Shown here: positions 890 through 63,500 of the stretch, one piece after another | Position numbering within the stretch: the stretch's first letter is position 1 | Layout of the letters: every line of letters begins with the position of its first letter | NCBI GenBank assembly: GCA_020137815.1 | Contig: CM035350.1 | Coordinates: 9,424,001-9,488,000, forward strand | Source of the DNA: Hormiphora californensis | Taxonomy: Eukaryota > Animalia > Ctenophora | Direction of reading: 5' to 3' | Length of the DNA stretch: 64,000 bases | The notes under the pieces: model-generated | Databases searched by the model: none | Told to the model about the DNA's origin: nothing | The model's input: the letters and a program-made list of their open reading frames with translations, nothing else | Position numbers and translations under genes: made by a program

Positions 890-1722
890 CTCTCTCTCTC
901 TCTCTCACTTTCTCTCACTTTCTCTTGATTTCTTTCTTTTACTGTATTCTGGTTTATCTTACCACAAAAGTCCGAGAAATAGACAAAGAAATAAAAACTC
1001 TATAAGTACACGAGGGAGGTAGAAAGAGGGAGGGAAAAGAGAGCTAAATCGAGAAAACCAACCTGTGCCTAGAATATACACTAAACTGTCTGAAATGAGA
1101 TATACTAACTATCCAGTGTCTAGTTAGTATAATATTTAATTTTATTATTTATTTCCCCTTCCTACTGCATGCAAGCCTGGTCACATGCCTCTCTCGTCTC
1201 TAATTTTCTATCCATCCTTTCCCTCTAAATATCTGGGATATGTCTTGCTGACCTAGCAATTTCCATCCTGCTAGCTGCCCTGTGATCAGGGTTCGGCAGA
1301 GGAAAATAAATCCTCTTTCCTCTGATACAATTCCCTAATCAATCCTCTTTCCCCAGCCATAGTTTCTTAGTCAATCCTCTTTCCCCAGCCATAGTTTCTT
1401 AGTCAATCCTCTTTCCCCAGCCATAGTTTCTTAGTCAATCCTCTTTCCCCGAGCCATAGTTTCCTAATCAATCAACATCCCCCTTGCAGCAAGCCAGGTC
1501 ACGGTCTAATGGTGAAACCACATAAAGTTACAGTGCACGGAATTACAGCCAGCAAGCTGATCGACGTTGCTGACTATCCAGCCTAGTAGTCAGATGGACG
1601 TTAGATTGACAGAGATAAACAGAGATAGAAAGAGAAACAGAGAGACAGAGAAAGAGAGATAGACATAGAGGTAGAGTGTAGATATAGCGAGATAGACATA
1701 GAGATAGACAGAGAATTGAAAA

Positions 1723-1814
<92 letters not shown>

Positions 1815-4800
1815 AGAAGGAACCAGGGATTAAACCCTGGGAATTGCATTCATTTATTTTAACTATCCCGTGATAATTTCAATTACATATTACTTTGTGA
1901 CTAGCTAATACTTTTCTTGCGTGTGTGTGTGTGTTATGTTTTCGGGTCACTGATAAATATTTTGGGTTGTTTTCTTCTTGCTTGACACGATCATGATAAC
2001 ATATTATTTCTGATTTCTTGGCATCCCAATATCCCATATATCCAGTCTCCATTGATCCTGCTGCTGTAACGCGCGGGCACTCTCCAGTGGGGGAGCCCGC
2101 GCGCAGACCCCCAGCTGCTCAATCGAGTGTTGGTGACCCCTCCCTCGTTGCTAGCGATCTCTGTTTCCAAACCCCACTTCACTTCTCCCTCTCTTCCGTT
2201 AATAGTTGATGGTACAATGGCAACAAAACGGGGTAGAGCCTGGCAGATGGTCGATATTACAGTTAAAATATTCACTGGACGGACCCTGTCCTTCCAGCAA
2301 CTACCCCTAAATACAACCATTGGAGAACTGAAGTTAAAGGTTGAGGACTCTTGTGGAATTCCCTCCCAATGTCAACGGATCACGTATCTAGATATGTGTG
2401 ATTTGTTTGACCATCGGACCTTGGAACAATGTGATGTTGTCAATAAAGCACGACTAGACATGCAGGTAGTGAGCTGGGGAGATTGATCGATCATTGTAAT
2501 AGGGTCTATGGAGTAAATACCACATGAACTTGCATTCATTAATCGGCTCTTTCCTACAGGTTTGGGCCCCGTTTATCAAGCTTGCCACTGCTGCCTCATC
2601 TGGTCTTATAGCCCAAACTTTCCAAGCGGGCATAATCAACAATCGAGGTTTCATTAGCCAGGTATGTTATTGCCCTGTTATGTGGCCTCACTCAGCAAGT
2701 GTGGGAAGTAATACTTCAAGTTGTGTAGAGTTCTGGTGTTTTTATTTATAGCAACTGTCAATAACGATACAGTCGGCCGGTCTTGTTTTGGTAAATTGAG
2801 GGATTGTATCCAACCGAATCTCGTGTTAGTGTCACCCTAGTATTTTATTGGGGACGTGACACGTATCTCTAGGGAATACCTTTTCCCGGTAAGAGATACA
2901 TCACGTGCGAGAGAACTGGGTAAAGTTCTGGTGTGTGTTGTTAGAATAACTTTCAATAAAGTTGATACAGTTGGCCGGTCTTGTGTTACCCTAGTAACCC
3001 AGTGTTTCTCCCAGGACGAAGCCTCGATAGCGCTCTACATAGCGTCTCACTGTGGTCACATTCGACTGGCCCTCATGTTACTGTCCTATGGGGTTGAGGT
3101 TAATTCAACTACCAAACTGGATAGGAGTGCCCTTCACGCAGCAGGTTGGTACAGACCCTGTCAGAGCATTGGCGGAGTGGGCGAGAACTGTGGTCAGAGC
3201 ATTGGCCTGACAGAACAGACAGTCGGTTTGGTTACTAACATACCCCCTTCTAGTTGAAGAGACAAGGTGGCTGGTTATTAACACACCCCCGTCTACTGAA
3301 AGAGATCTAGTTCTAGCCTAAATCCCCCGTCCAGGCATCAAAGGTCAGTGGTCCATACTGTGCCTACTAATTAACTGGGGAGCAAACATCTACAGTAAGG
3401 ATGTAACGGGTAACACTGCTATGGACTATGCCCGAGCATTTGGGCACCGGCAATCCGCCCGGGGCCTTGCGCTTTATGAGTGGCATCTTAACAAGGTTTG
3501 TTTGTTTGTTTGTTTGTTTGTTTGTTTGTTTGTTTGTTGTAGAATGCCCCCAGAACCCTCTATAATCACCTGCCCCGCTATCTGTACAGGAGCAGAGGGC
3601 GACCCAAAAGCACCCCCCCCCCCCTAAATACCCCACCCCTCTCTAAAACCCTCCCATTACAGGAGCAGAGGGCGACCCAAAAGCACCCCCCCCCCCCCTA
3701 AATACCCCACCCCTCTCTAAAACCCTCCCATTACAGGAGCAGAGGGCGACCCAAAAGCACCCACCCCTCTAAATACCCCTCCCACCTCTTACACCATCTC
3801 ATTACTTGTTGTTGCCACCCCTTATTACTCACAGGAGCAGAGGGCGACCCAAAAGCACCCCCTCCCCCCCTAAATACCCCACCCCGGCCCTCTCTAAAAC
3901 CCTCCCATTACAGGAGCAGAGGGCGACCCAAAAGCACCCCCCCCCCCCCTAAATACCCCAAACCCTCTCTAAAAACCCCTCCCATTACAGGAGCAGAGGG
4001 CGACCCAAAAAGCACCCCCCCCCCCCTCTAAATACCCCACCCCTCTCTAAAACCCCCTCCCATTACAGGAGCAGAGGGCGACCCAAAAAGCACCCCCCCC
4101 CCCCTCTAAATACCCCACCCCTCTCTAAAACCCCCTCCCATTACAGGAGCAGAGGGCGACCCAAAAGCAGGGAACACCCCCTAAATACCCTCTCCCTTCT
4201 AACACCATCACATCCCCATCACATTACACTTCACAGGAGCAGAGGGCGACCCAAAAGCAGGGCGCACCCCCTGGAGATGGTGGTAGGAACATAATGGATC
4301 AGTTTCCCTCGCACTGGCTGACCGAGATACCCGGGTGCAACACTCCCCAGATCCTCTGCCCTCCCATGACAATGAACCTGGTCGCGGCACGGGCAGCCAA
4401 CATGCTCTCCATCCTTCCAGGTAGTTTACTTGTTAATTAACTAGTTGATTAGTTTCTAATTAATTAAGAAATAGTGAGATTGAAAACTTCTGGAACTTTG
4501 CCTTCCATAAAACTTCCTATCTTATCCAGGAGGCGGATCTAAAGCAGCGGCGATATCAGTTCCGACCACTCCGGAACTAAGGGGTGACCCGGTATACAAG
4601 TGTGGGAAGGACCATCAAATTCCAGGGTCTCATGCTCTGGGTGTGAAAACTAAGAAAACCCTCCCTCCCATCACCTCTACACCCTCTAGGTGAGATGCAA
4701 TTGGGGTACTTTCAGAGTTCATTTTCTTGTAATAATAATAATAGTATGGGGTTTTGATATATCGCTCGGACAGAACAGGGCCAGAGCAAACAAACTTACT

Positions 4801-12774: not shown

Positions 12775-23585
<10,811 letters not shown>

Positions 23586-23806
23586 GACTTTCACAACACA
23601 GCAATACTAGTATATTGACAAGGGAGATAATGCGAGCTAGAGAAAGAGAGAATGGTTTAATTTGGTTAGTGCACTAATTAGGCAAGCAGCAGTTCGAGAG
23701 AGAGAGAAGTCAGAAAGTCAGGGAGAGAGGGGAATGGATAAATTGTAGAGGAGAGAGAGAGAGAGAGAAGTCAGAAAGTCAGGGAGAGAGGGGAATGGAT
23801 AAATTG

Positions 23807-36011: not shown

Positions 36012-49662
<13,651 letters not shown>

Positions 49663-50139: not shown

Positions 50140-50600
50140 AGGTTCGGAAGAACTGTCGCCTTCTTCCATGCTTCCTTCAGGCGAGATAGAGCAATAGCAG
50201 CTGAACAATTCTGTACAAGGACCTTGGAGTAGTCATGCAACTGCTTTTGGACAGACTCTGACATCGAGTTGTTTTCACGGTTTTGTAATTCAATCAAACT
50301 ATTTTGTGCTTCTATCAGCTTCCCTTGCAATGCAATCCTTGCTACCATGATTGTTCTGACTAATCTGATAGTTCTATTACAATCCTCCAGTTGCAGGCGT
50401 TCTGAAATTTAGAATATTTGTGGTGCACGCTACACGTTAACATGTGATAAACGGCAAACGCACCAAAACAATTCCGCGTACGACTTTGGGGGGTGAACAG
50501 TTGAAAAAAATGGAGTATACTTCCTTCCCTAACTGAAGAATGTAACGACTTCAAAAAATCCGACTTTAACTCATCCAGAGAGACTAAATCCAAGAGCGCA
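50140..50600 (-). pseudogene. Degenerate, truncated ORF1-like fragment of the family at 32.3-34.2 kb
   Basis: LQGKLIEAQ...SVQKQLHDYSKVLVQNCSAAIA aligns by eye with LQQTVIEAQ...VKAYSSVLAQNCAA and IKSFASVLEKKCASALA. It is interrupted and lacks the RRM. Confidence 0.65.
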
Positions 50601-51043
50601 CCTCATCCAGAAGAGACTAAATCCAAGAGCGCATCACACTCTGAATAGCGACTGTTCACTGTTGAGTGTTGGTACAAACTATTAACTAAAAACAATATCC
50701 AATTGGGGTTTTGAAAAAGAAAGTGTTGACATATTTACAGCTTTAAATTTAATAAAATCTCTAAAAAGCAAAGATGGTAGATGAAAAGCTAGATATTTTA
50801 AGATATTATTTCGTTCGATGTCACTTCAATCCACACAGGTGTGAGGTGATTCCAATCGATTACATTTTCAACAAAAAACTAAAAAGCATTGTTCATAAAC
50901 ATCGAGCTAGTTCTTCCTCATTTCAAAGTTTAACATTAGTTCAGTGTTGAATTCTTTCTCCGTGAAGTGGAATCATACACAGTCGTGATAATATCAAACT
51001 CCAAAAAACGTGAACATTTAGAAAGGGTATATCTTTAGATATA

Positions 51044-54000
51044 TCACTTGAAGGTGACGATATCTGAATGAATAGCGGTTTCTTGGATAATGTCTCTGGT
51101 TGTCACCATATTATCACAGCAACTAGGATGATTCATCTGCACGTTCGTGTTATCAGTTGAATGACATTGCTCTCCTGTCACTGGTTTGCTAACACAACTA
51201 GTGCTGTCCAGGCGAGAATTGTTGACAATTATTTCATCAGCTGGCTCGGGTGAAACTGGTACTCCACGGAACATGGCAAATATTCTATTAACGGCAGGCC
51301 TCAACACGTCAAACACTATAGTCAGTGTATCACTGTACAAAAGTGGGTTTATTATAGAGTGTATAGGTAGGATGTTGAGGGAGAAGACCTGGTACCACGG
51401 TGACATATCGACAACCTCAGCCGTATGGAAGGCACAACAGATCAAAAAGGGTAGCCAGCAACAAAAGTCCGTTACACACACCAAGGTCACTTTCCGACTG
51501 AGTCGACTGTTGATGCGTCGGTTAACCCCAGGCACCTCCACTTTATTCGATAAAACTACTATTAAGATATGGCACACCGCAACGGACACAAAGCAGAGGA
51601 AGTGAAGGCTGATGTAGAACCAGACAAAGACAACCTGGGGATCATCGGAGAGGATAAAGAACTTAAACATACCAACTGGATCGTTACCGTAGATGACCCT
51701 TTCTTCCCGAAACAGTCCCATAATCCGTGGAAAACATTTCCGCGACCATTCCCTGAATTGTATTCCAGGATATGTCTGCCTTCCGTCGGGAGCGTTCAGT
51801 GTACCTTGCCCCGTTGTAACCATACACAATTTGCAGAATCTGTGTCTTATCCACCGTACCAAGGAAGAGTGATGTATCCCTAGGGAACACAAGACCGTTC
51901 ACAAACCAGTCCTCGAGAGTATCCAAAAGAGGGACTAACGCAAAAACGAGAGCAATAAGCATAATGGACAATAGGCATATAATAACTTTAAGCCGAAGCT
52001 CCTTCGATACATCGTCAGACTGCCTGTAATGAAGAGCTCTTCTTGTACCATAAAGTCGGTAGACACTTATACCGGCCATGGCTAAGGAGGAAACTGTCGC
52101 TCCGACCGTGTTATGTTAAGTACCCTATGAAGTTGCAAGACCTTCCACTCATCCACTCCAAACGCTGTACACAGAAATCTGTGTTTTATCCAGTGCAGAG
52201 TATCAAGTTACAGACTTAGCAGATAGCAGGGGTAAAAAGATCTCCAAAGGAGATTGCAAGTACAAATATATGGTTCACAAAGGCCCCGCTTTTCTCAGGG
52301 AGTTTCTGGGAGATGTTTCACCGAAGGTGGAAGTCTATAACGAGTCCCAGGACTCCCATGAAAAATCCAATCACAGTCATTGTATGATCTTCAACTACTT
52401 TTCTGCTGCAGCTACTATTGCATTCATCAGAAAAGTCCTTGCAATCAGTTTTTCCATCGCATTTCTGGCTCGAGGTAAGAACGAGGATTATCAGCACACC
52501 GAAAATTGTTGTCACACCCGGCTTCCTCATCAGACCTGTCCCCACAGTATCAACCAGATCACACACTCTCTCAAAGAGAATACATCTTTTATTTTTGCAC
52601 ACGAACACGTTGTTATGAAATGCAGTTTTATATCGGAAAACCGATGTCACAACAATTAACTTTGTGTTAAGCGAGTAAAACAGAATCTGATTGTGACAGG
52701 AGTATGAGAGCCCGTCTTTCAAAGGGCATTCGGCATTTGTACATTGTCCAGTACAGCTATAAAGACGTATGCCTCACCGTTAAAGTATCTGCAATCTTGC
52801 TTCCGGTGCACCGTAACAATGGATGTTGTGAGGTTTTTACCGAGAATTGGTGAAATGAATGGTTGAATTTTGTTCTGAACATTGCTCTTTCAATGAAGGA
52901 GCACCGATGATAGACCTTTGTTGCATACATTTCCAACCAGTACCTCATTTCCAAATACGTTTCCGGTTGGAGATGGAAAAGGGCTTTCTTTAGATTTACT
53001 CTTCTTCTTGCACTCTGACAGGCCCCATTGTCACAGCTCTGTATCGAAGAACACATGGTGGAAGTTTCCAGGAATTCTGAATGGTTACCATGACACAAAA
53101 ACACGTTCGAGCATGGTGCCGTATCCACCTTAATCCGCAGAGTGGTGCCATTGCCACACTTTTCCCAATCGCGTTTTTCGTCGATGCCGCTCTCACAATC
53201 TACTACCCCATCTAGGATCCAATCCACCGGAACTCGAGAAAATTTTCCAAATCGCCTCTGACAAGTGTGAGTGGTAAGTTTGCCAACTCCGCAGAACATT
53301 TTACCCTCATCCATACCACCTGCACAATCTTCTATACCATCACAAAGCCTGTGTTTGTGAATGTAACAGTACCGACCAATTCTGACACATTTCAACTCTA
53401 TCCCATCATCACACAACTGCGGAGATGTATTGCCATCACAGATCACATAGATGGAAATTGTGCTAGGATAACCGTTCACCAGACAGCTGCCCCCAACCTT
53501 TGCTGGATCGGTGCAATTAGTTTGGTCAAACCCAGTGTCTATGCAGTAGGTTGACCTTTGATCAGTGTAAACGTTGTCATTTCGACCTTTGATTGTCAAA
53601 AAACATCTTGACCCGTTATACAAGGGAAAGTTGCCTCTCGGTCCATGTCAGTGCTTCACAAAAAGTGCATCTTGATCCCAAGGAGGGGTGGTTCCTTTTT
53701 TCGGCATTCCTTGGAAAGGCATGAACACCAGATCGTTTGAAATACTTCCGTAGACGATCCCCCCACCACAATCCCGCTCCTCGACACATGTCAAATCGAG
53801 ATTCGGTGTGAGAGCTTTGTCCATCCAGATATCGTCACATATCCCATCACAAACCCCTCCCAGTTTCAAGGTGACCTCGACAATACTTCCATCCTGTAGA
53901 GTGAGCGGATGAAGCATAGTACCCGCAGTTATATCGCTACACGTCTGAACGTCTTTTTGAACAAAGTTACCTTTCAAGCCATCGAGACAGACAACTCCAC

Positions 54001-54427
54001 AAACAGGCGGCAGGTCGAACATTTCGACGATACTCCAACGAACGCTAAAGAAATTATCGCTTTTAAATGACCCACATGCCTGGTACATAGCGTCGTCATT
54101 TGGGCATCGCAAAGAATACTCAGTTGTGACTAAACGTGTTCTCATCTCGTAGGTTCCTTTCCTTGTGTAGGTCACATTGGGTGCGGTAATGCACTGGAAG
54201 GTAGCCTCACGCACCATCGAATTGTCATCCTTGCTACAAAGCTGGACTAGGAATTCATGGTGATTAACAATGGGACAAAGATGCACCTCTTCATAAGTAT
54301 CAGGCGGCGATGAATTGACCCTGGACATGGAGTTAACTAAACTCTCATCTCTAGTGAGGTTTGTTGCCCAGAGAGAACTGGACCTGGCTGTTGGAAGTAG
54401 CACGAGTCCAATCATTGAAAGGAACAT
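51044..54427 (-). pseudogene. Intronless LDLa-repeat class A GPCR (GRL101/LGR-related 7TM, no LRRs), disrupted by multiple frameshifts
   Basis: Signal peptide MFLSMIGLVLLPTARS. LDLa motifs CDGIEDCAGGMDE, DGVVDCESGIDE, CDGKTDCKDFSDEC. TM3 AGISVYRL, TM6 VTDFCCWLPF, TM7 ILPIHSIINPLLYS. The coding sequence is split over at least 6 ORF fragments in different frames. Confidence 0.8.
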
Positions 54428-54605
54428 CTTCCTGTAGACATTGTATAATTGGCATACGTTACACTTTAATTAACAGATAATTAACAGATAATTAACAGAT
54501 AATTAATAGATATAGGAGGGAATATCAGGCAAACTCTTCAAGTGCAAATGAAAGAGGCAGCCTCACGTATCAAAAAGAACTTTTACAGACAGCTTCACGT
54601 ATTAA

Positions 54606-56858: not shown

Positions 56859-57408
56859 GTTAACAGTTAATTTTGTAGCCCATGTGATAAGGATCTTCAG
56901 AAATGGCATGTCCTGCTCACCTCTTGTGGTAACATACACCTCTTGTGGTAACATACAGTTAATTTTGTAGCCCATGTGATAAGGATCTTCAGTAATGGCA
57001 TGTCCTGCTCACCTCTTGTGGTAACATACACCACTTGTGGTAACATACACCTCTTGTGGTAACATACACCTCTTGTGGTAACATACAGTTAATTTTGTAG
57101 CCCATGTGATAAGGATCTTCAGAAATGGCATGTCCTGCTCACCTCTTGTGGTAACATACAGCTAATTTTGTAGCCCATGTGATAAGGATCTTCAGAAATG
57201 GCATGTCCTGCTCACCTCTTGTGGTAACATACACCTCTTGTGGTAACATACAGTTAATTTTGTAGCCCATGTGATAAGGATCTTCAGAAATGGCATGTCC
57301 TGCTCACCTCTTGTGGTAACATACACCTCTTGTGGTAACATACAGTTAATTTTGTAGCCCATGTGATAAGGATCTTCAGAAATGGCATGTCCTGCTCACC
57401 TCTTCCAG
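56859..57408 (+). repeat. Compound minisatellite: 6 copies of a unit of about 73 bp plus 19-bp subunits, forming the intron before the first conserved MED12 exon
   Basis: CAGTTAATTTTGTAGCCCATGTGATAAGGATCTTCAGAAATGGCATGTCCTGCTCACCTCTT occurs 6 times. The last copy ends in the real acceptor CCAG. Confidence 0.92.
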
Positions 57409-60400
57409 GACAGAGACCTAAAGAGAGGACTGAGAGCTCCTGATGTCTACCCTCAGGACAAAGACCAAAAAGAGGATAAACTGAACGAGATAAGTCTGAA
57501 AAAGGTCGGTTTAAAGTTAATTGTGATCAGTCACCGGTTTTATAACATATTATTAATTATATACACCCCAATTACATCCAATGAAGAGTGAAGACTCTAA
57601 CCCTCATTCCTCAGGGTTACTCGAACACCCCAATAACATCCAATGAGTGTGGGTCAGCTAGGGACAAAATCAAAGCTAAGGGGTTGGCGGCCCTCCAGCA
57701 AAGTATCTTAGCGTCAACTAAGGAGCTGCTGAGGTTGAAACAATCACTAAACACAGTCACTGACAATAGCTCCCGTCGAATCCCCACCATCCAGAGAGAC
57801 CAGTTCTGGTCCGTCAACCAGAGGTAATGAGAAGTCCCTGTATAATCATACTACTTACTATTCAAATTATCAGTGCTACATCACCTAGCAACTACACCTG
57901 CACGTGCAATTATTAGAGCAACTTAGAATCCCTACCATCCAAAGAGACCAGTTCTGGTCCGTCAACCAGAGGTAATGTTGTATTGTTCATACTATTATGA
58001 GGGGAGGTGGGGGAGGTGCAACAGCACAGAGGTAATGAAGCGAGAAGTCCCTTTAATATTATGGAATGAAAATATTTTCGATTTACGTCCTTTTCTAAAG
58101 GACAAAGGATAGAAAAATACCGAAATCAGCATCTTTAAAATATTTGCATTCCGTTTGAGGTCACTGGTGACCCCAAGTACAGAAAAAATATGATAGAATG
58201 AAAATTATATTTCTGCTTTCAACTAGGCTTGTTGGGAGTGACTCCAGCGATTTTTAAACAATTCTGTCGACGGCGCCACTATCGGTCCAAAGGGTTAACA
58301 ACTTCTAATTTAGCTATTATTTACACGTTTTACAATCGTCAATAATCATCCATTACACACGCTACACATACCATTTCTCTTGTTTAGGTCTAATAGACAG
58401 ACGATAAAGAAGTTTTGTAATGACCTGGCATCTGTCAGTAGGCCCCTTTCTCATCTGGTGAAAGGTCGGATTCCCACTTTCCAGAAGAAAGAGGAGATCC
58501 TTGACAACATGGCTGAGCACCAGGTATAACATGGCTGAACACCAGGTATAACATGGCTGAACACCAGGTATAACATGGCTGAACACCAGGTATAACATGG
58601 CTGAACACCAGGTATAACATGGCTGAACACCAGGTATAACATGGCTGAACACCAGGTATAACATGGCTGAACACCAGGTATAACATGGCTGAACACCAGG
58701 TATAACATGGCTGAACACCAGGTATAACATGGCTGAACACCAGGTATAACATGGCTGAACACCAGGTATAACATGGCTGAACACCAGGTATAACATGGCT
58801 GAACACCAGGTATAACATGGCTGAACACCAGGTATAACATGGCTGAACACCAGGTATAACATGGCTGAACACCAGGTATAACATGGCTGAACACCAGGTA
58901 TAACATGGCTGAACACCAGGTATAACATGGCTGAACACCAGGTATAACATGGCTGAACACCAGGTATAACATGGCTGAACATCAGGTATAACATGGCTGA
59001 ACACCAGGTATAACATGGCTGAGCACCAGGTATAACATGGCTGAGCACCAGGTATAACATGGCTGAACACCAGGTATAACATGGCTGAACACCAGGTATA
59101 ACATGGCTGAACACCAGGTATAACATGGCTGAACACCAGGTATAACATGGCTGAACACCAGGTATAACATGGCTGAACACCAGGTATAACATGGCTGAAC
59201 ACCAGGTATAACATGGCTGAACACCAGGTATAACATGGCTGAACACCAGGTATAACATGGCTGAACACCAGATATAACATGGCTGAACACCAGGTATAAC
59301 ATGGCTGAACACCAGGTATAACATGGCTGAACACCAGATATAACATGGCTGAACACCAGGTATAACATGGCTGAACACCAGGTATAACATGGCTGAACAC
59401 CAGGTATAACATGGCTGAACACCAGGTATAACATGGCTGAACACCAGGTAAAGTGTTGTTCAAACAATTACAGGCAACGCGGTACACCATCACTTTAGGT
59501 ATGGTACCTAATACGGTACGATTACGCTCCTCTTTCTCAACAATATATCATCACATCAGGTACCAGTTTTAAGGGCTATCTGGTTTATGAAGATCACTGC
59601 TGTGCACATGAACACAATAAGTAAGAAGAGGAATCAGTGCAGTGCTACTGAGTGGACAAAGTGTGTAACTGAGTATCTCAAAGATTGCCTCTCCAAGTTC
59701 GCAGATCAACCCATGGGCGTAAGTCCACTGTTTATGACTGTTTATATTTCTTGCCCCGGGGAATCGGCGGGAGCCCGAAACTTATTCTGGGTTAACGGTT
59801 TCCCCTTCTTCATTCGTTACTGGTTACAATAAATACCTCTATCTCTGTTTAGACCCATCAGGACTACACCAAGACAGTGATGAATATGGGAAACAAGGCA
59901 CACGCAGAAACATACGCAGCCAAGAACAGGTGGAACTACTGTCTTCGACTTGCTCACGTTATGTATCAGGTGGGAGATAGTGTAACTAACTAAGATAGTT
60001 TAACCATCAATGATCACGTTGACTGGTGAGATCACAGTTTTATCGTCTAACCTGGTCTAACTTCACTTTATACCATTTTAATCTGTGTCCAATTTAGGAT
60101 GGTCTCTTGGACAGGCACGATTTTCTGTTGTTTCTAATAAAGTGGGTTCACGAACTGAAACTATCGGAAGCTGATGACACCCTCAAACATCTAGTTCAGG
60201 TACAACACTACCTTACTATTTGTTATGTTTTAACCCTCCTTTACACGGAGCGCACGGAAAGAGAGTCGAGCTAGGCAACCTTTCTATACATAACAGTGTT
60301 TTTACAGTGTTTTTACACATTGTCAATAAATTCCATTCATCCCAAATTTATTTCCATTTGATTTCCCTTTATTATTTCAGGTTATATTGACATATTATTT

Positions 60401-60535
60401 CAGGTTATATTGACATATTTTGATGACGTAACAGAGAACTTTGTACTGGCCCGGTGTACCGCTTACATGTGTGTCACAAAGTTGGGAAGTCTCACCGAGA
60501 TCAATAACATTAGGAGTCCTTTTGAGTGGGGTAAG

Positions 60536-60586
<51 letters not shown>

Positions 60587-63500
60587 TGCTACGTTTCCTT
60601 CCATTTACTCCTTGTTGTTTCCTACCATCCCCCCATTTTCAGACAGTGCAGTGAAGGATTGTCGTGTTCCAGAGCGATCTAACTGTCACTATCATGATAC
60701 CTTACTACTCATCTTCTCAACCCTTCTACAACGAATCACTCTGGAATGTCCCACTGCTCTCGTTTATCAACGCAGCTGGGTTAGTGTGACTCTCATTCCA
60801 TTCACGTGAAGGGAGTGACCCCTGTGGTTCAGAGTTTTATCAGGCATAGAACCAGAGGTTGCTTTCATTCGCAGTAGTGTTGTTTCAACTTGTATTGTGT
60901 ATCCTGTGCAAGTTCTGAGTTTTCCCATTACCAAATACCAATACATAACTTTGTCCTGAACCTCTCCCCGACCCTGCAGGTCTGCCCACTCCTTCCTCCC
61001 GGGGGTGCTATTGATTCTATCTCTAAGGAGAGCCCCCTCGACAAACTACCCTGCTACCCTGCCTCCCTACCCTTCCCTAAAGATCTCACTACGGAACAAA
61101 TCGAACAGGTAAATAGCGGTTTGAAATCTTATTAGATAATGTTAGTATCATGATGTTAGATTAACATGTCTCCCCGCCCCCAGATGAGATACGAGAATAT
61201 GTTAGTATCATGTTGTTAGACTAACATGTCTCCCCGCCCCCAGATGAGATACGAGATAAGCGAGAGTACTGAGGATGTGAGAGTGAGAAGTGTCATATCG
61301 GAGGAGAGGTGGTTGATGTGTGAGGACAACTCCCCTCCCTCTGCCCTGGCCATGTTAGCTGCACTCGATGAACACAACTTCTACATCTCACAGACAGGTT
61401 TGCAGGTTACACACATCCTGGTCACACAGGTTTAGGGGTTACACTTAGCACCTGAAATGTTAAAAATAATATTTTTGGGGCCATCCCGGACATCATTACT
61501 AATTTAATAAAGCGTAATAATCTCACTATCATACAGGAATCATCTCAACACACCACACATCAATCAACCTGTTACAGATCACAATAACAGGTTTAATTTG
61601 CTCGACCATTCCCACCGCGCCCTGGAGGGTTAAACATAACAGGGGTGGATCACATGAGTCCCTTCTCTCTCTCTCTCTCTCTCTCCTAAATTCTCCTCCA
61701 GATCGCACCCTTCTCTCCTATTTATAATCCTCTTCCCTCCAGATCGCATCCTTCTCTCCTATTTATACTCCTCTTCCCCCAGATCACAGTAGGGTAGGTA
61801 GTGTGGCGACTATCTACAAAAAGATATTCGGTCCAATCAACAAGCCACTCACCGAACAGCTCAGGGATGATGCCCCCATAGTATCTGGATTGTGTGAGTG
61901 GGCCGTCACCCATCGGAGGACCGGGTCACATAGGTGTCTGGTGGTTGCGGAGTTGTTGAAGAAGAGACAGGGGTCACTGTTAGAGACTCAGGATCAGCGA
62001 AAGAAAAAGGAATCTGACTCGATATTCCAGGAGATTCTCTTCAGATATTTGAATGAGAATGCCCCTACTTGGACAGGTTAGTACAGAGCTAGGCAGGGGT
62101 GTATTTTACACTTTACAGGCACCAGTTATTGTTTAGTTCTTTTCATTGACTATTGCAAACTGATCTCGGAGTATTGATAGTTCACCATAGATTAATACAA
62201 TTGTGTAATTCTGTTGTTATGTTCTAACCCTCCCTTTACATTTGTAAACACAGTCTAGCCAGGCAATAATTCTGCAACTAACCGAACTGTAACAGGGAAC
62301 GAAGAGGACAGGATCCAGTTCCACAACATGATGACGCTATTTGGAGAGTTAGTCCGATCAATGTTCAGTTACAACAAATACCTCAACAAGCTGATCTCCC
62401 TTGGCCACCTCTCCTCCCCCAAACTGGTTTACAGCCAGGAGACTATAACTACCCTGGGACCAGACCTCCAGACCCTCCCCAGACATCGGCAATACGTGCT
62501 GTGCCTGCCTGTCAATGATCTACAGAAGGTAGGGAACATGTTTACAACGAAGTGCCTACAATTAAAGAAAACAACGATGTGGCAGTACTTAAATTCAATT
62601 AGGAATCAAGAGCTTTCGGATGAACTATGTCAATCGTCTTCAGCTGTGACTACGGTTCTGGGTTCAAAAAAGATAAATCCTAGTTTATTCATCTAACTAA
62701 CTCCACCTCTCTTCCTGCTAGGATAAGAGTGCGAGAACACTGGTGTACGGGACAGGTCTGGGGAATATGGATAGCCACTTCATGTCAATTCAGAAAGAGT
62801 TGGCCAGTTTATACCAGAGTTTGGGGCCAGGGGCGGGTAACACAAACCCATATGCTACCCTCCAGCAATGTCGACCTGTAATTGAGGGTTTCAGGCAACT
62901 CCTACCAGTGCACAAATATACGGTATGCGACATAAAACAGAGGGTTAATTAATTTTTAAATGATCTTTGTCGGTGCTCGTATCGTGCACAATTGAAAGTG
63001 AAAAGACATCAAACCTGAGCTGCAATGTTTGCAGTTGCAAATTGTGTACCGCGCGCTGAACTCGTCACTATTAAAGTACCTGATTTCAGCACCACGCGCA
63101 CAACACTGCCCTTTTCTCGGCACCACGCGCACAACCCCCGCTCTCTTCTGATCACACAGGTCACAACCCCCTCTCTTTTGAGTCGCTTGACACTGTGTCC
63201 GTGCTCCGCATGAACAATTCAACCTCTCTTCAGATCACACAACGCCTCATGGAACCCATATTACCGGGTGCCCAAACCAAGCAGACCGGAATGGCTGTAC
63301 CGACTGTCCTACAGATGGAGCTGATGTACACCCTTATGGAGCTGTCAGGGGATGTCAGGTGAGAGAGAGACATCATAGCCGTTATAAATAAACATGAATC
63401 GCAATTCCACTTAAATCCACAATAAATATCCGCAAAATCGCATTTGTAAGACAATCGGCCGTTATTTGATTGAGATTTTGTGGTTCGGTAGAGAGCGAGT

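What the first reader, a model, noticed from the sequence alone, without database searches (positions are those of the whole stretch)
58490..59560. MED12 5' splice site amplified about 43 times as a 22-bp minisatellite, with an in-frame stop right after the first donor
Seen: the repeat unit is the last 18 nt of the exon plus GTAT. The exon reads AAC ATG GCT GAG CAC CAG|GTA TAA, so use of any downstream donor copy includes an immediate in-frame TAA. The last copy carries a different donor (CAG|GTAAAG), probably the ancestral one. Inference: an essential gene tolerates about 42 near-identical decoy donors, which implies strict first-donor selection or a copy-number-tunable NMD loss.
Basis: partly seen in the sequence, partly recalled or inferred. 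Interest (0 to 1): 0.72.

Follow-up and report, generated by a model that had tools for sequence, protein, structure and literature searches.

The report
Splice-donor minisatellite in comb-jelly MED12
In the MED12 gene of what is likely a comb jelly, a 22-base stretch covering the end of one exon and its splice signal stands 43 times in a row, some individuals likely carry a single copy, and the cell likely keeps using the first signal, an oddity already known from lancelet and human genes.

Summary
The array is real: 43 x 22 bp at 58506-59451, spanning the exon 3 donor of a MED12 gene. Best hits of a neighbouring gene point to a ctenophore. Forty of 42 downstream copies keep GT, and any of them would stop the protein after residue 157.

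It is not an assembly artefact. Contigs of run X1, likely another individual, are strongly enriched over it. Run X5 holds what is most likely a single-copy allele with the last donor (GTAAAG), so that donor is ancestral and the array is polymorphic. One spliced RNA contig (genotype unknown) has the one-copy junction.

The stop is no sign of design: 7 of 33 introns here hit a stop by codon 2, as do 18% of simulated duplications.

This is a 'mirage' minisatellite, known from amphioxus and from human F7, CBS and 6-16. The scan has noted the type before in shark, camelid and annelid DNA. Locally, 8 of 80 modelled splice sites in four genes are duplicated, always on the intron side; the enrichment is modest and post hoc. 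Likely near-neutral, with the first donor used. Tunable NMD is untested and unsupported.

The parts
58388..58523 (+). MED12 exon 3 (136 nt); its last 18 nt are the exonic part of repeat copy 1
   Evidence: Pfam PF09497; open model; RNA contig loose end identical to 58488-58517
58506..59451 (+). 22-bp minisatellite, 43 copies; 41 GT donors including the real one, 2 dead (copies 35, 38)
   Evidence: contig depth in X1 and X5
58524..58529 (+). First donor GTATAA (productive); read-through gives GTA TAA, a stop after residue 157
   Evidence: matrix score 6.9 bits, 19th of 40 real donors from the bottom
59448..59559 (+). Ancestral 112-nt intron 3 left intact behind copy 43: donor GTAAAG (8.1 bits) to the exon 4 acceptor
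   Evidence: single-copy allele inferred from X5
59560..59718 (+). MED12 exon 4, begins GTAC
   Evidence: RNA contig with GT..AG joints at 59718/59853 and 59969/60098
57778..57977 (+). Duplicated exon 2 end and donor (52 nt, 148 apart); one copy is absent in an X5 contig
   Evidence: joint 57777 to 57926
60370..60415 (+). 23-nt duplication of the exon 7 acceptor; the upstream copy is non-productive
   Evidence: spanned without gaps by an X1 contig
61134..61256 (+). 60-nt duplication of the exon 10 acceptor; the upstream copy is non-productive
56863..57404 (+). MED12 start region in 6 copies; five upstream copies encode a 9-residue peptide then stop

Best explanation
This is a 43-copy minisatellite built from the MED12 exon 3/intron 3 boundary, likely a recent and still polymorphic expansion of one 22-bp tandem duplication, which likely persists as near-neutral DNA because the spliceosome likely keeps using the first donor. 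Shown: the array, the gene model, the stop after any downstream donor, and a spliced contig with the one-copy junction. Inferred step 1: a 22-nt duplication across the donor pushed the old donor and its 112-nt intron downstream and gave exon 3 a new donor (GTATAA). A single duplication of the one-copy allele reproduces the unit with one mismatch. Inferred step 2: slippage or unequal exchange amplified the unit; 36 of 41 inner copies are identical, and variants recur at copies 24/25 and 35/38. Inferred step 3: the exon-proximal donor wins, as in F7 intron 7 and under exon definition. Any leak to copies 2-43 would give a premature stop with at least 11 introns downstream and would likely be removed by NMD as noise, not as regulation.
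For: Array and variants. Present in raw-read contigs: X1 summed depth 2,363 and 2,001 in array bins against 23-47 in adjoining unique bins; X5 2,599 against 349-559. X1 differs from the window at full depth at 6 places, so it is likely another individual. Single-copy allele in X5: 2 contigs leave the window at 58528 with loose letters beginning GTGTT, as behind copy 43. A 183-nt contig (depth 152; exons 3 and 4 about 350-400) fits 59430-59581, but its 31 further letters do not fit the previous repeat copy. 31 is the length from the unitig break to the first unit. RNA contig in X7 (894 nt, depth 8.5): loose end 30 of 30 identical to 58488-58517, joined to exon 4. Stop at chance level: 7 of 33 introns read through stop by codon 2; of 320 simulated 22-nt duplications at other donors, 18% stop within 2 codons and 77% within the array. 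No structural difference between donor copies 1-8 (pairing 0.57-0.61). Precedents: PMC1557585, PMC3087553, PMC3902484, PMC9225289. Seven more duplicated splice sites in the window, all with the spare copy on the intron side.
Against: The single RNA contig comes from a seawater metatranscriptome with its own alleles, so it may derive from a one-copy allele. Contigs drop rare isoforms. The ancestral donor scores higher (8.1 vs 6.9 bits, matrix from 39 local donors) and still fronts an intact 112-nt intron, which an intron-definition rule would favour (PMC9225289). In human 6-16 and CBS the next two pseudo-donors are also used (PMC1557585 introduction), so leak is plausible. Contig depth is not copy number (tool warning). 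The single-copy allele is inferred from two tables; no contig was displayed in full.
Confidence: 0.72

Rival explanations
1. Leaky or tunable allele: downstream donors, above all the stronger ancestral donor at copy 43, take a real share of splicing. Array alleles then make less MED12 through NMD, in proportion to length or simply by presence.
For: Copy 43 keeps the whole ancestral 112-nt intron and a better donor. 17 of 38 local introns are 200 nt or shorter. Pseudo-donors are partly used in human 6-16 and CBS (PMC1557585). A one-copy allele appears to segregate, so variation exists for selection to act on.
Against: No RNA evidence of downstream use. The stop is at chance level. Both X1 haplotype contigs at the array end appear preceded by repeat sequence, which suggests array homozygotes exist. 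Amphioxus mirages are reported not to disturb splicing (PMC3087553, PMC3902484).
Confidence: 0.17
2. Two-step rescue: the ancestral intron is removed first, then the array is removed as a new intron from donor 1 to the CAG that ends a copy. This regenerates the correct junction, as in intron birth by AG|GT duplication.
For: Every unit ends CAG|GT and exon 4 begins GTA, so such a splice would restore the frame exactly (sequence). A duplication can create a working intron (PMC3265369, abstract).
Against: The unit CAG scores 0.6 bits as an acceptor. Only 1 of 40 real acceptors scores lower (median about 8.3), and 17% of 850 ordinary intronic AGs score as well. There is no pyrimidine tract.
Confidence: 0.06
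3. Assembly artefact or inflated copy number.
For: Copies are 99% alike. The window shows a 1-nt frameshift in the first modelled FAK exon against homologues, so the assembly may have errors. No read spanning the array was seen.
Against: High contig depth over array units in two runs from different studies. Seven variant copies at defined places. The exact number 43 remains unverified.
Confidence: 0.04

Closest known systems
'Mirage' minisatellites of amphioxus (Adh3, globins BflGb6 and BflGb9, TnC, PGBD5; PMC3087553 passages, PMC3902484 passage; the original Adh3 paper not seen)
   Same: [quoted passage not shown]
   Different: Here in a likely ctenophore, far from chordates; 43 copies; a likely one-copy allele still segregates. 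No ctenophore report appeared in searches.
Human F7 intron 7 37-bp VNTR, and 6-16 (25 pseudo-sites), CBS intron 13 (15-20), LMNB2, PDGF as listed in PMC1557585 (abstract, introduction, discussion read)
   Same: First unit spans the donor; identical pseudo-donors follow in the intron; polymorphic length; in F7 only the most upstream site is used.
   Different: More copies (43 vs 5-25) and tighter spacing (22 nt); the unit is mostly exonic (18 of 22 nt); the first donor is the new one and the stronger ancestral donor is last; donor use was not measured here.
Intron gain by tandem duplication of an AG|GT site (PMC3265369 abstract; PMC4974935 search listing only)
   Same: The unit contains CAG|GT, so each copy could in principle be acceptor and donor.
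   Different: The duplication spans an existing donor rather than lying within an exon; the unit has no credible acceptor; no new intron is shown.

Membership tests
Mirage minisatellite (splice-boundary tandem repeat) | Tandem unit spans a real exon-intron boundary | tested here: met
   18 nt exon + 4 nt intron; boundary supported by Pfam, homologue alignment and an RNA contig
Mirage minisatellite (splice-boundary tandem repeat) | Many but not all copies keep the splice signal | tested here: met
   40 of 42 downstream copies keep GT
Mirage minisatellite (splice-boundary tandem repeat) | Length differs between alleles | tested here: met
   Indirect: multi-copy in the window and X1, one-copy contigs in X5; allele lengths not measured
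Mirage minisatellite (splice-boundary tandem repeat) | Core homogenised, boundary units distinct | tested here: met
   36 of 41 inner copies identical; copies 1 and 43 each differ at one base
Mirage minisatellite (splice-boundary tandem repeat) | Normal splicing is preserved | tested here: inconclusive
   One RNA contig with the one-copy junction, genotype unknown
Mirage minisatellite (splice-boundary tandem repeat) | Somatic instability (reported for Adh3) | not testable with these tools
   Only contigs were available
F7-type donor VNTR | Only the most upstream donor is used although downstream ones are functional | not testable with these tools
   No raw RNA reads from an array carrier were listed
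Intron born by AG|GT duplication | Duplicated segment contains AG|GT | tested here: met
   CAG|GT in each intact unit
Intron born by AG|GT duplication | Duplicated AG is a usable acceptor (pyrimidine tract, branch point) | tested here: not met
   0.6 bits, below 39 of 40 local acceptors; sequence score only
Regulated unproductive splicing (AS-NMD) | Stop-bearing isoform is made and its placement is selected or conserved | tested here: not met
   Stop position at chance level; array likely absent from some alleles; isoform not seen in the one contig
MED12 | Med12 (PF09497) and Med12-LCEWAV (PF12145) domains in order | tested here: met
   27-32% identity over about 600-790 aa to 7 homologues

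The most novel reading that the evidence does not exclude
Mirage duplications are a genome-wide feature of this ctenophore, hitting about a tenth of splice sites (8 of 80 here). Its spliceosome picks the outermost, exon-proximal site even against a stronger ancestral donor sitting on an intact 112-nt intron. Cross-exon site choice would then already operate in an early-branching animal with short introns, and the segregating one-copy and 43-copy MED12 alleles would be a ready natural test of it.
Probability: 0.3. Interest if true: 0.55.

Novelty: new member of a known kind. Interest (0 to 1): 0.27.

Why it matters
On its own it is an extreme but familiar oddity. Its value is as a test case. 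Exon-definition-type architecture is proposed to have risen mainly in bilaterians (PMC6142364, passages), and in human data short introns favour the downstream donor (PMC9225289). Here an intact short ancestral intron with the stronger donor has to be bypassed, and likely one-copy and long alleles coexist, so allele-specific RNA sequencing could read the site-choice rule of a ctenophore directly. It also warns annotators that decoy sites are common in this genome.

Tried and rejected
No whole genome is held, so the enrichment test is limited to four genes in the window. No RNA holder was listed by the run search; X8 laid 0 contigs and X7 laid 0 on the left flank; these blanks are no evidence. 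Reads were laid on the flanks with 2-3 repeat units only, so array length was not measured. Homologue search with exon 3 alone found nothing. The metagenome scan with exon 4 found 0 relatives among 167 pattern matches. The protein atlas gave no answer. The representative search gave 144 hits; 6 of the 7 looked up had no name. A first enrichment test with a fixed centred core gave 3-5 of 59 sites against 2-3.5% of intron positions (P 0.04-0.12). The filter dropped tandem events and was replaced. With at least 5 nt required on both sides of a site, the ANKUB1-like array is not counted, and enrichment without MED12 is not significant (2-3 vs 0.9-1.3, P 0.08-0.33). I relaxed this to 3-4 nt after seeing that. 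Antisense ORFs of 365 and 370 aa across the array were rejected: the reverse 66-nt period simply lacks a stop. RNA structure does not single out donor 1. A GAT allele at 58503-58505, which would make the duplication exact, is suggested by unitig breaks at 58504 in X1 and X5 but was not seen. Paper searches for VNTR + UPF3A and MED12 + ctenophore returned 0. No supplements were read.

Full report
Observation. Tandem Repeats Finder reports a 22-bp array of 43.0 copies at 58506-59450 with 99% matches. Unit by unit, 36 copies equal the consensus and seven differ at one base. Copies 35 and 38 have lost the GT, and copy 43 ends GTAA and runs into unique intron. Forty of the 42 downstream copies keep GT.

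The gene. Exon 3 (58388-58523) matches Pfam Med12 at the curated cut-off, and a later exon matches Med12-LCEWAV. A 15-exon model with GT..AG introns is open for 793 residues. All 7 homologues covering the exon 3/4 junction, of 9 tested, align across it without a gap when donor 1 is used. Each of the 42 downstream donors gives a stop after residue 157; 28 of them would also shift the frame. Copy 43 stands 112 nt before the exon 4 acceptor, a normal short intron here. A neighbouring focal adhesion kinase exon has its two best hits in Bolinopsis and Mnemiopsis (72% and 68%), so the animal is likely a ctenophore; the species was not sought.

Real and polymorphic. Only assembled contigs of public runs were available, and they were laid on the two flanks. 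In X1, summed contig depth is 2,363 and 2,001 in the array bins against 23-47 in adjoining unique bins. X1 carries other letters at full depth at six places, so it is likely not the source animal. In X5 the figures are 2,599 against 349-559. The tool warns that such depth is no copy number, so I take it only as evidence that many copies exist in raw data. X5 also has two contigs that leave the window right after copy 1 with letters beginning GTGTT, the sequence behind copy 43. It has a 183-nt contig at depth 152 that fits 59430-59581, while its remaining 31 letters do not fit the preceding copy. Thirty-one is the distance from the unitig break at 58504 to the first unit, and exon 3 shares only 7 of those 31 letters with the repeat. 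The simplest reading is a one-copy allele using the GTAAAG donor, which makes that donor ancestral. This is an inference from two tables.

Splicing. Run X7 (seawater, guessed RNA) holds one 894-nt contig at depth 8.5 that joins exons 4, 5 and 6 at GT..AG introns. Its loose end before exon 4 is identical to 58488-58517, so it carries one copy of the exon 3 end. This confirms the productive junction. It does not show which donor an array allele uses, because the animal's genotype is unknown and contigs drop rare forms.

Origin. One 22-nt tandem duplication of the one-copy model reproduces the unit with a single mismatch. The mismatch would vanish if the codon before the unit had been GAT; unitigs of both X1 and X5 break there, but the other letter was not displayed. 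Repeated variants at copies 24/25 and 35/38 fit slippage or unequal exchange (inference).

The stop codon. Of 33 modelled introns read through, 7 reach a stop by the second codon. Of 320 simulated 22-nt duplications at other donors, 18% stop within two codons and 77% within the array. The TAA therefore needs no explanation by selection. That a stop with at least 11 downstream introns is an NMD target is general knowledge of junction-dependent decay and is not tested in ctenophores here.

Site strength. With matrices built from local sites (39 donors, 40 acceptors), copies 1-42 score 6.9 bits as donors and copy 43 scores 8.1. The CAG ending each unit scores 0.6 as an acceptor, below 39 of 40 real ones. 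Folding gives no advantage to donor 1 among copies 1-8. So position, not strength or structure, must favour donor 1, and two-step rescue through the unit CAG is unlikely.

Surroundings. Other boundaries are duplicated too: MED12 exon 2 donor (absent in an X5 contig), exon 7 and exon 10 acceptors; FAK exon 4 and 15 acceptors and exon 14 donor; and an ANKUB1-like exon 5 acceptor with eight upstream copies, seven of which stop at once. With the finding that is 8 of 80 modelled sites in four genes; a fifth intron-bearing gene lacked homology support and was left out. Leaving the 43-copy array out, 5-7 local duplications span a site against 2.0-2.8 expected from random non-exonic placement (P 0.004-0.056 over the settings). 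Without MED12 it is 2-4 against 0.9-1.5 (P 0.02-0.33). The test is post hoc, and purifying selection on the exonic copy can keep such pairs visible longer, so the excess is suggestive only. In every case the open frame needs the outermost site: first donor, last acceptor. The position of decoys on the intron side is forced by survival, but the tolerance of them points to exon-proximal choice.

Comparison. Human F7 intron 7 has a 37-bp VNTR whose first unit spans the donor; only the first site is used, by a 5'-3' preference. The paper lists 6-16, CBS, LMNB2 and PDGF as similar, with leak to the next two sites in 6-16 and CBS (PMC1557585: abstract, introduction, discussion). Amphioxus genes carry such repeats at both boundaries, named mirages, length-variable and reported not to disturb splicing (PMC3087553 and PMC3902484, passages). 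In human data, equal-strength donors resolve upstream under exon definition and downstream under intron definition (PMC9225289: abstract, first part of results). The ctenophore Hormiphora has high indel heterozygosity in introns and common trans-splicing (PMC8527503, passages), which is background only. Searches showed no report of mirages in a ctenophore; most subscription journals are outside the library.

Verdict. A real, likely polymorphic mirage minisatellite; a new member of a known kind. Most likely near-neutral with first-donor use (0.72). A leaky allele remains possible (0.17) because the stronger ancestral donor and its short intron are intact. Interest 0.27, rising to about 0.55 if mirages prove genome-wide and exon-proximal choice is shown in this lineage.

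Noticed in passing
window 3586-4257: Mirror case: the acceptor and first 21-25 nt of exon 5 of an ubiquitin/ankyrin (ANKUB1-like by domain content) gene stand in 8 upstream copies (74-78 bp unit); 7 stop at once, the eighth is in frame, the last is the real acceptor.
   Followed up: partly
window 56863-57404: The MED12 start region is present six times; five upstream copies encode a 9-residue peptide then stop. Each carries an acceptor-like TTTTGTAG 24 nt before the ATG, which could be a trans-splice site with the last copy used (untested).
   Followed up: partly
window 36905-37072, 47888-47937, 48216-48316: Three duplicated splice sites in the FAK gene (two acceptors, one donor).
   Followed up: partly
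window 36080-36105: The first modelled FAK exon has one extra base relative to Bolinopsis and Mnemiopsis homologues, shifting the frame; assembly indel or real allele.
   Followed up: no
window 57834-57950: The spacer between the two exon 2 donor copies holds a piece of a very high-copy element (contig depth 13,889 in X1 and 607,869 in X5).
   Followed up: no
window 59441-59450 and 59553-59562: The two ends of the ancestral intron 3 share a 9 of 10 nt direct repeat around CAG|GTA, a possible trace of intron origin by duplication.
   Followed up: no
window 59467-59552: X1 has a second haplotype whose intron 3 differs here (84 nt replaced by a longer stretch), so the unique part of the intron is polymorphic too.
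   Followed up: no
window 14920-16375: Foldback-like element: 17-bp and 64-bp tandem arrays in inverted arrangement.
   Followed up: no
window 18354-23606 (-): A 1,751-codon open frame with internal repeats upstream of TACC-like exons at 12775-13911; possibly one gene.
   Followed up: no
window 51047-54469 (-): LDL-receptor class A plus 7TM receptor coding sequence split over several frames; frameshift errors or a pseudogene.
   Followed up: no
window 1339-1473 and 50570-50633: Further short tandem repeats with acceptor-like motifs in unannotated regions.
   Followed up: no
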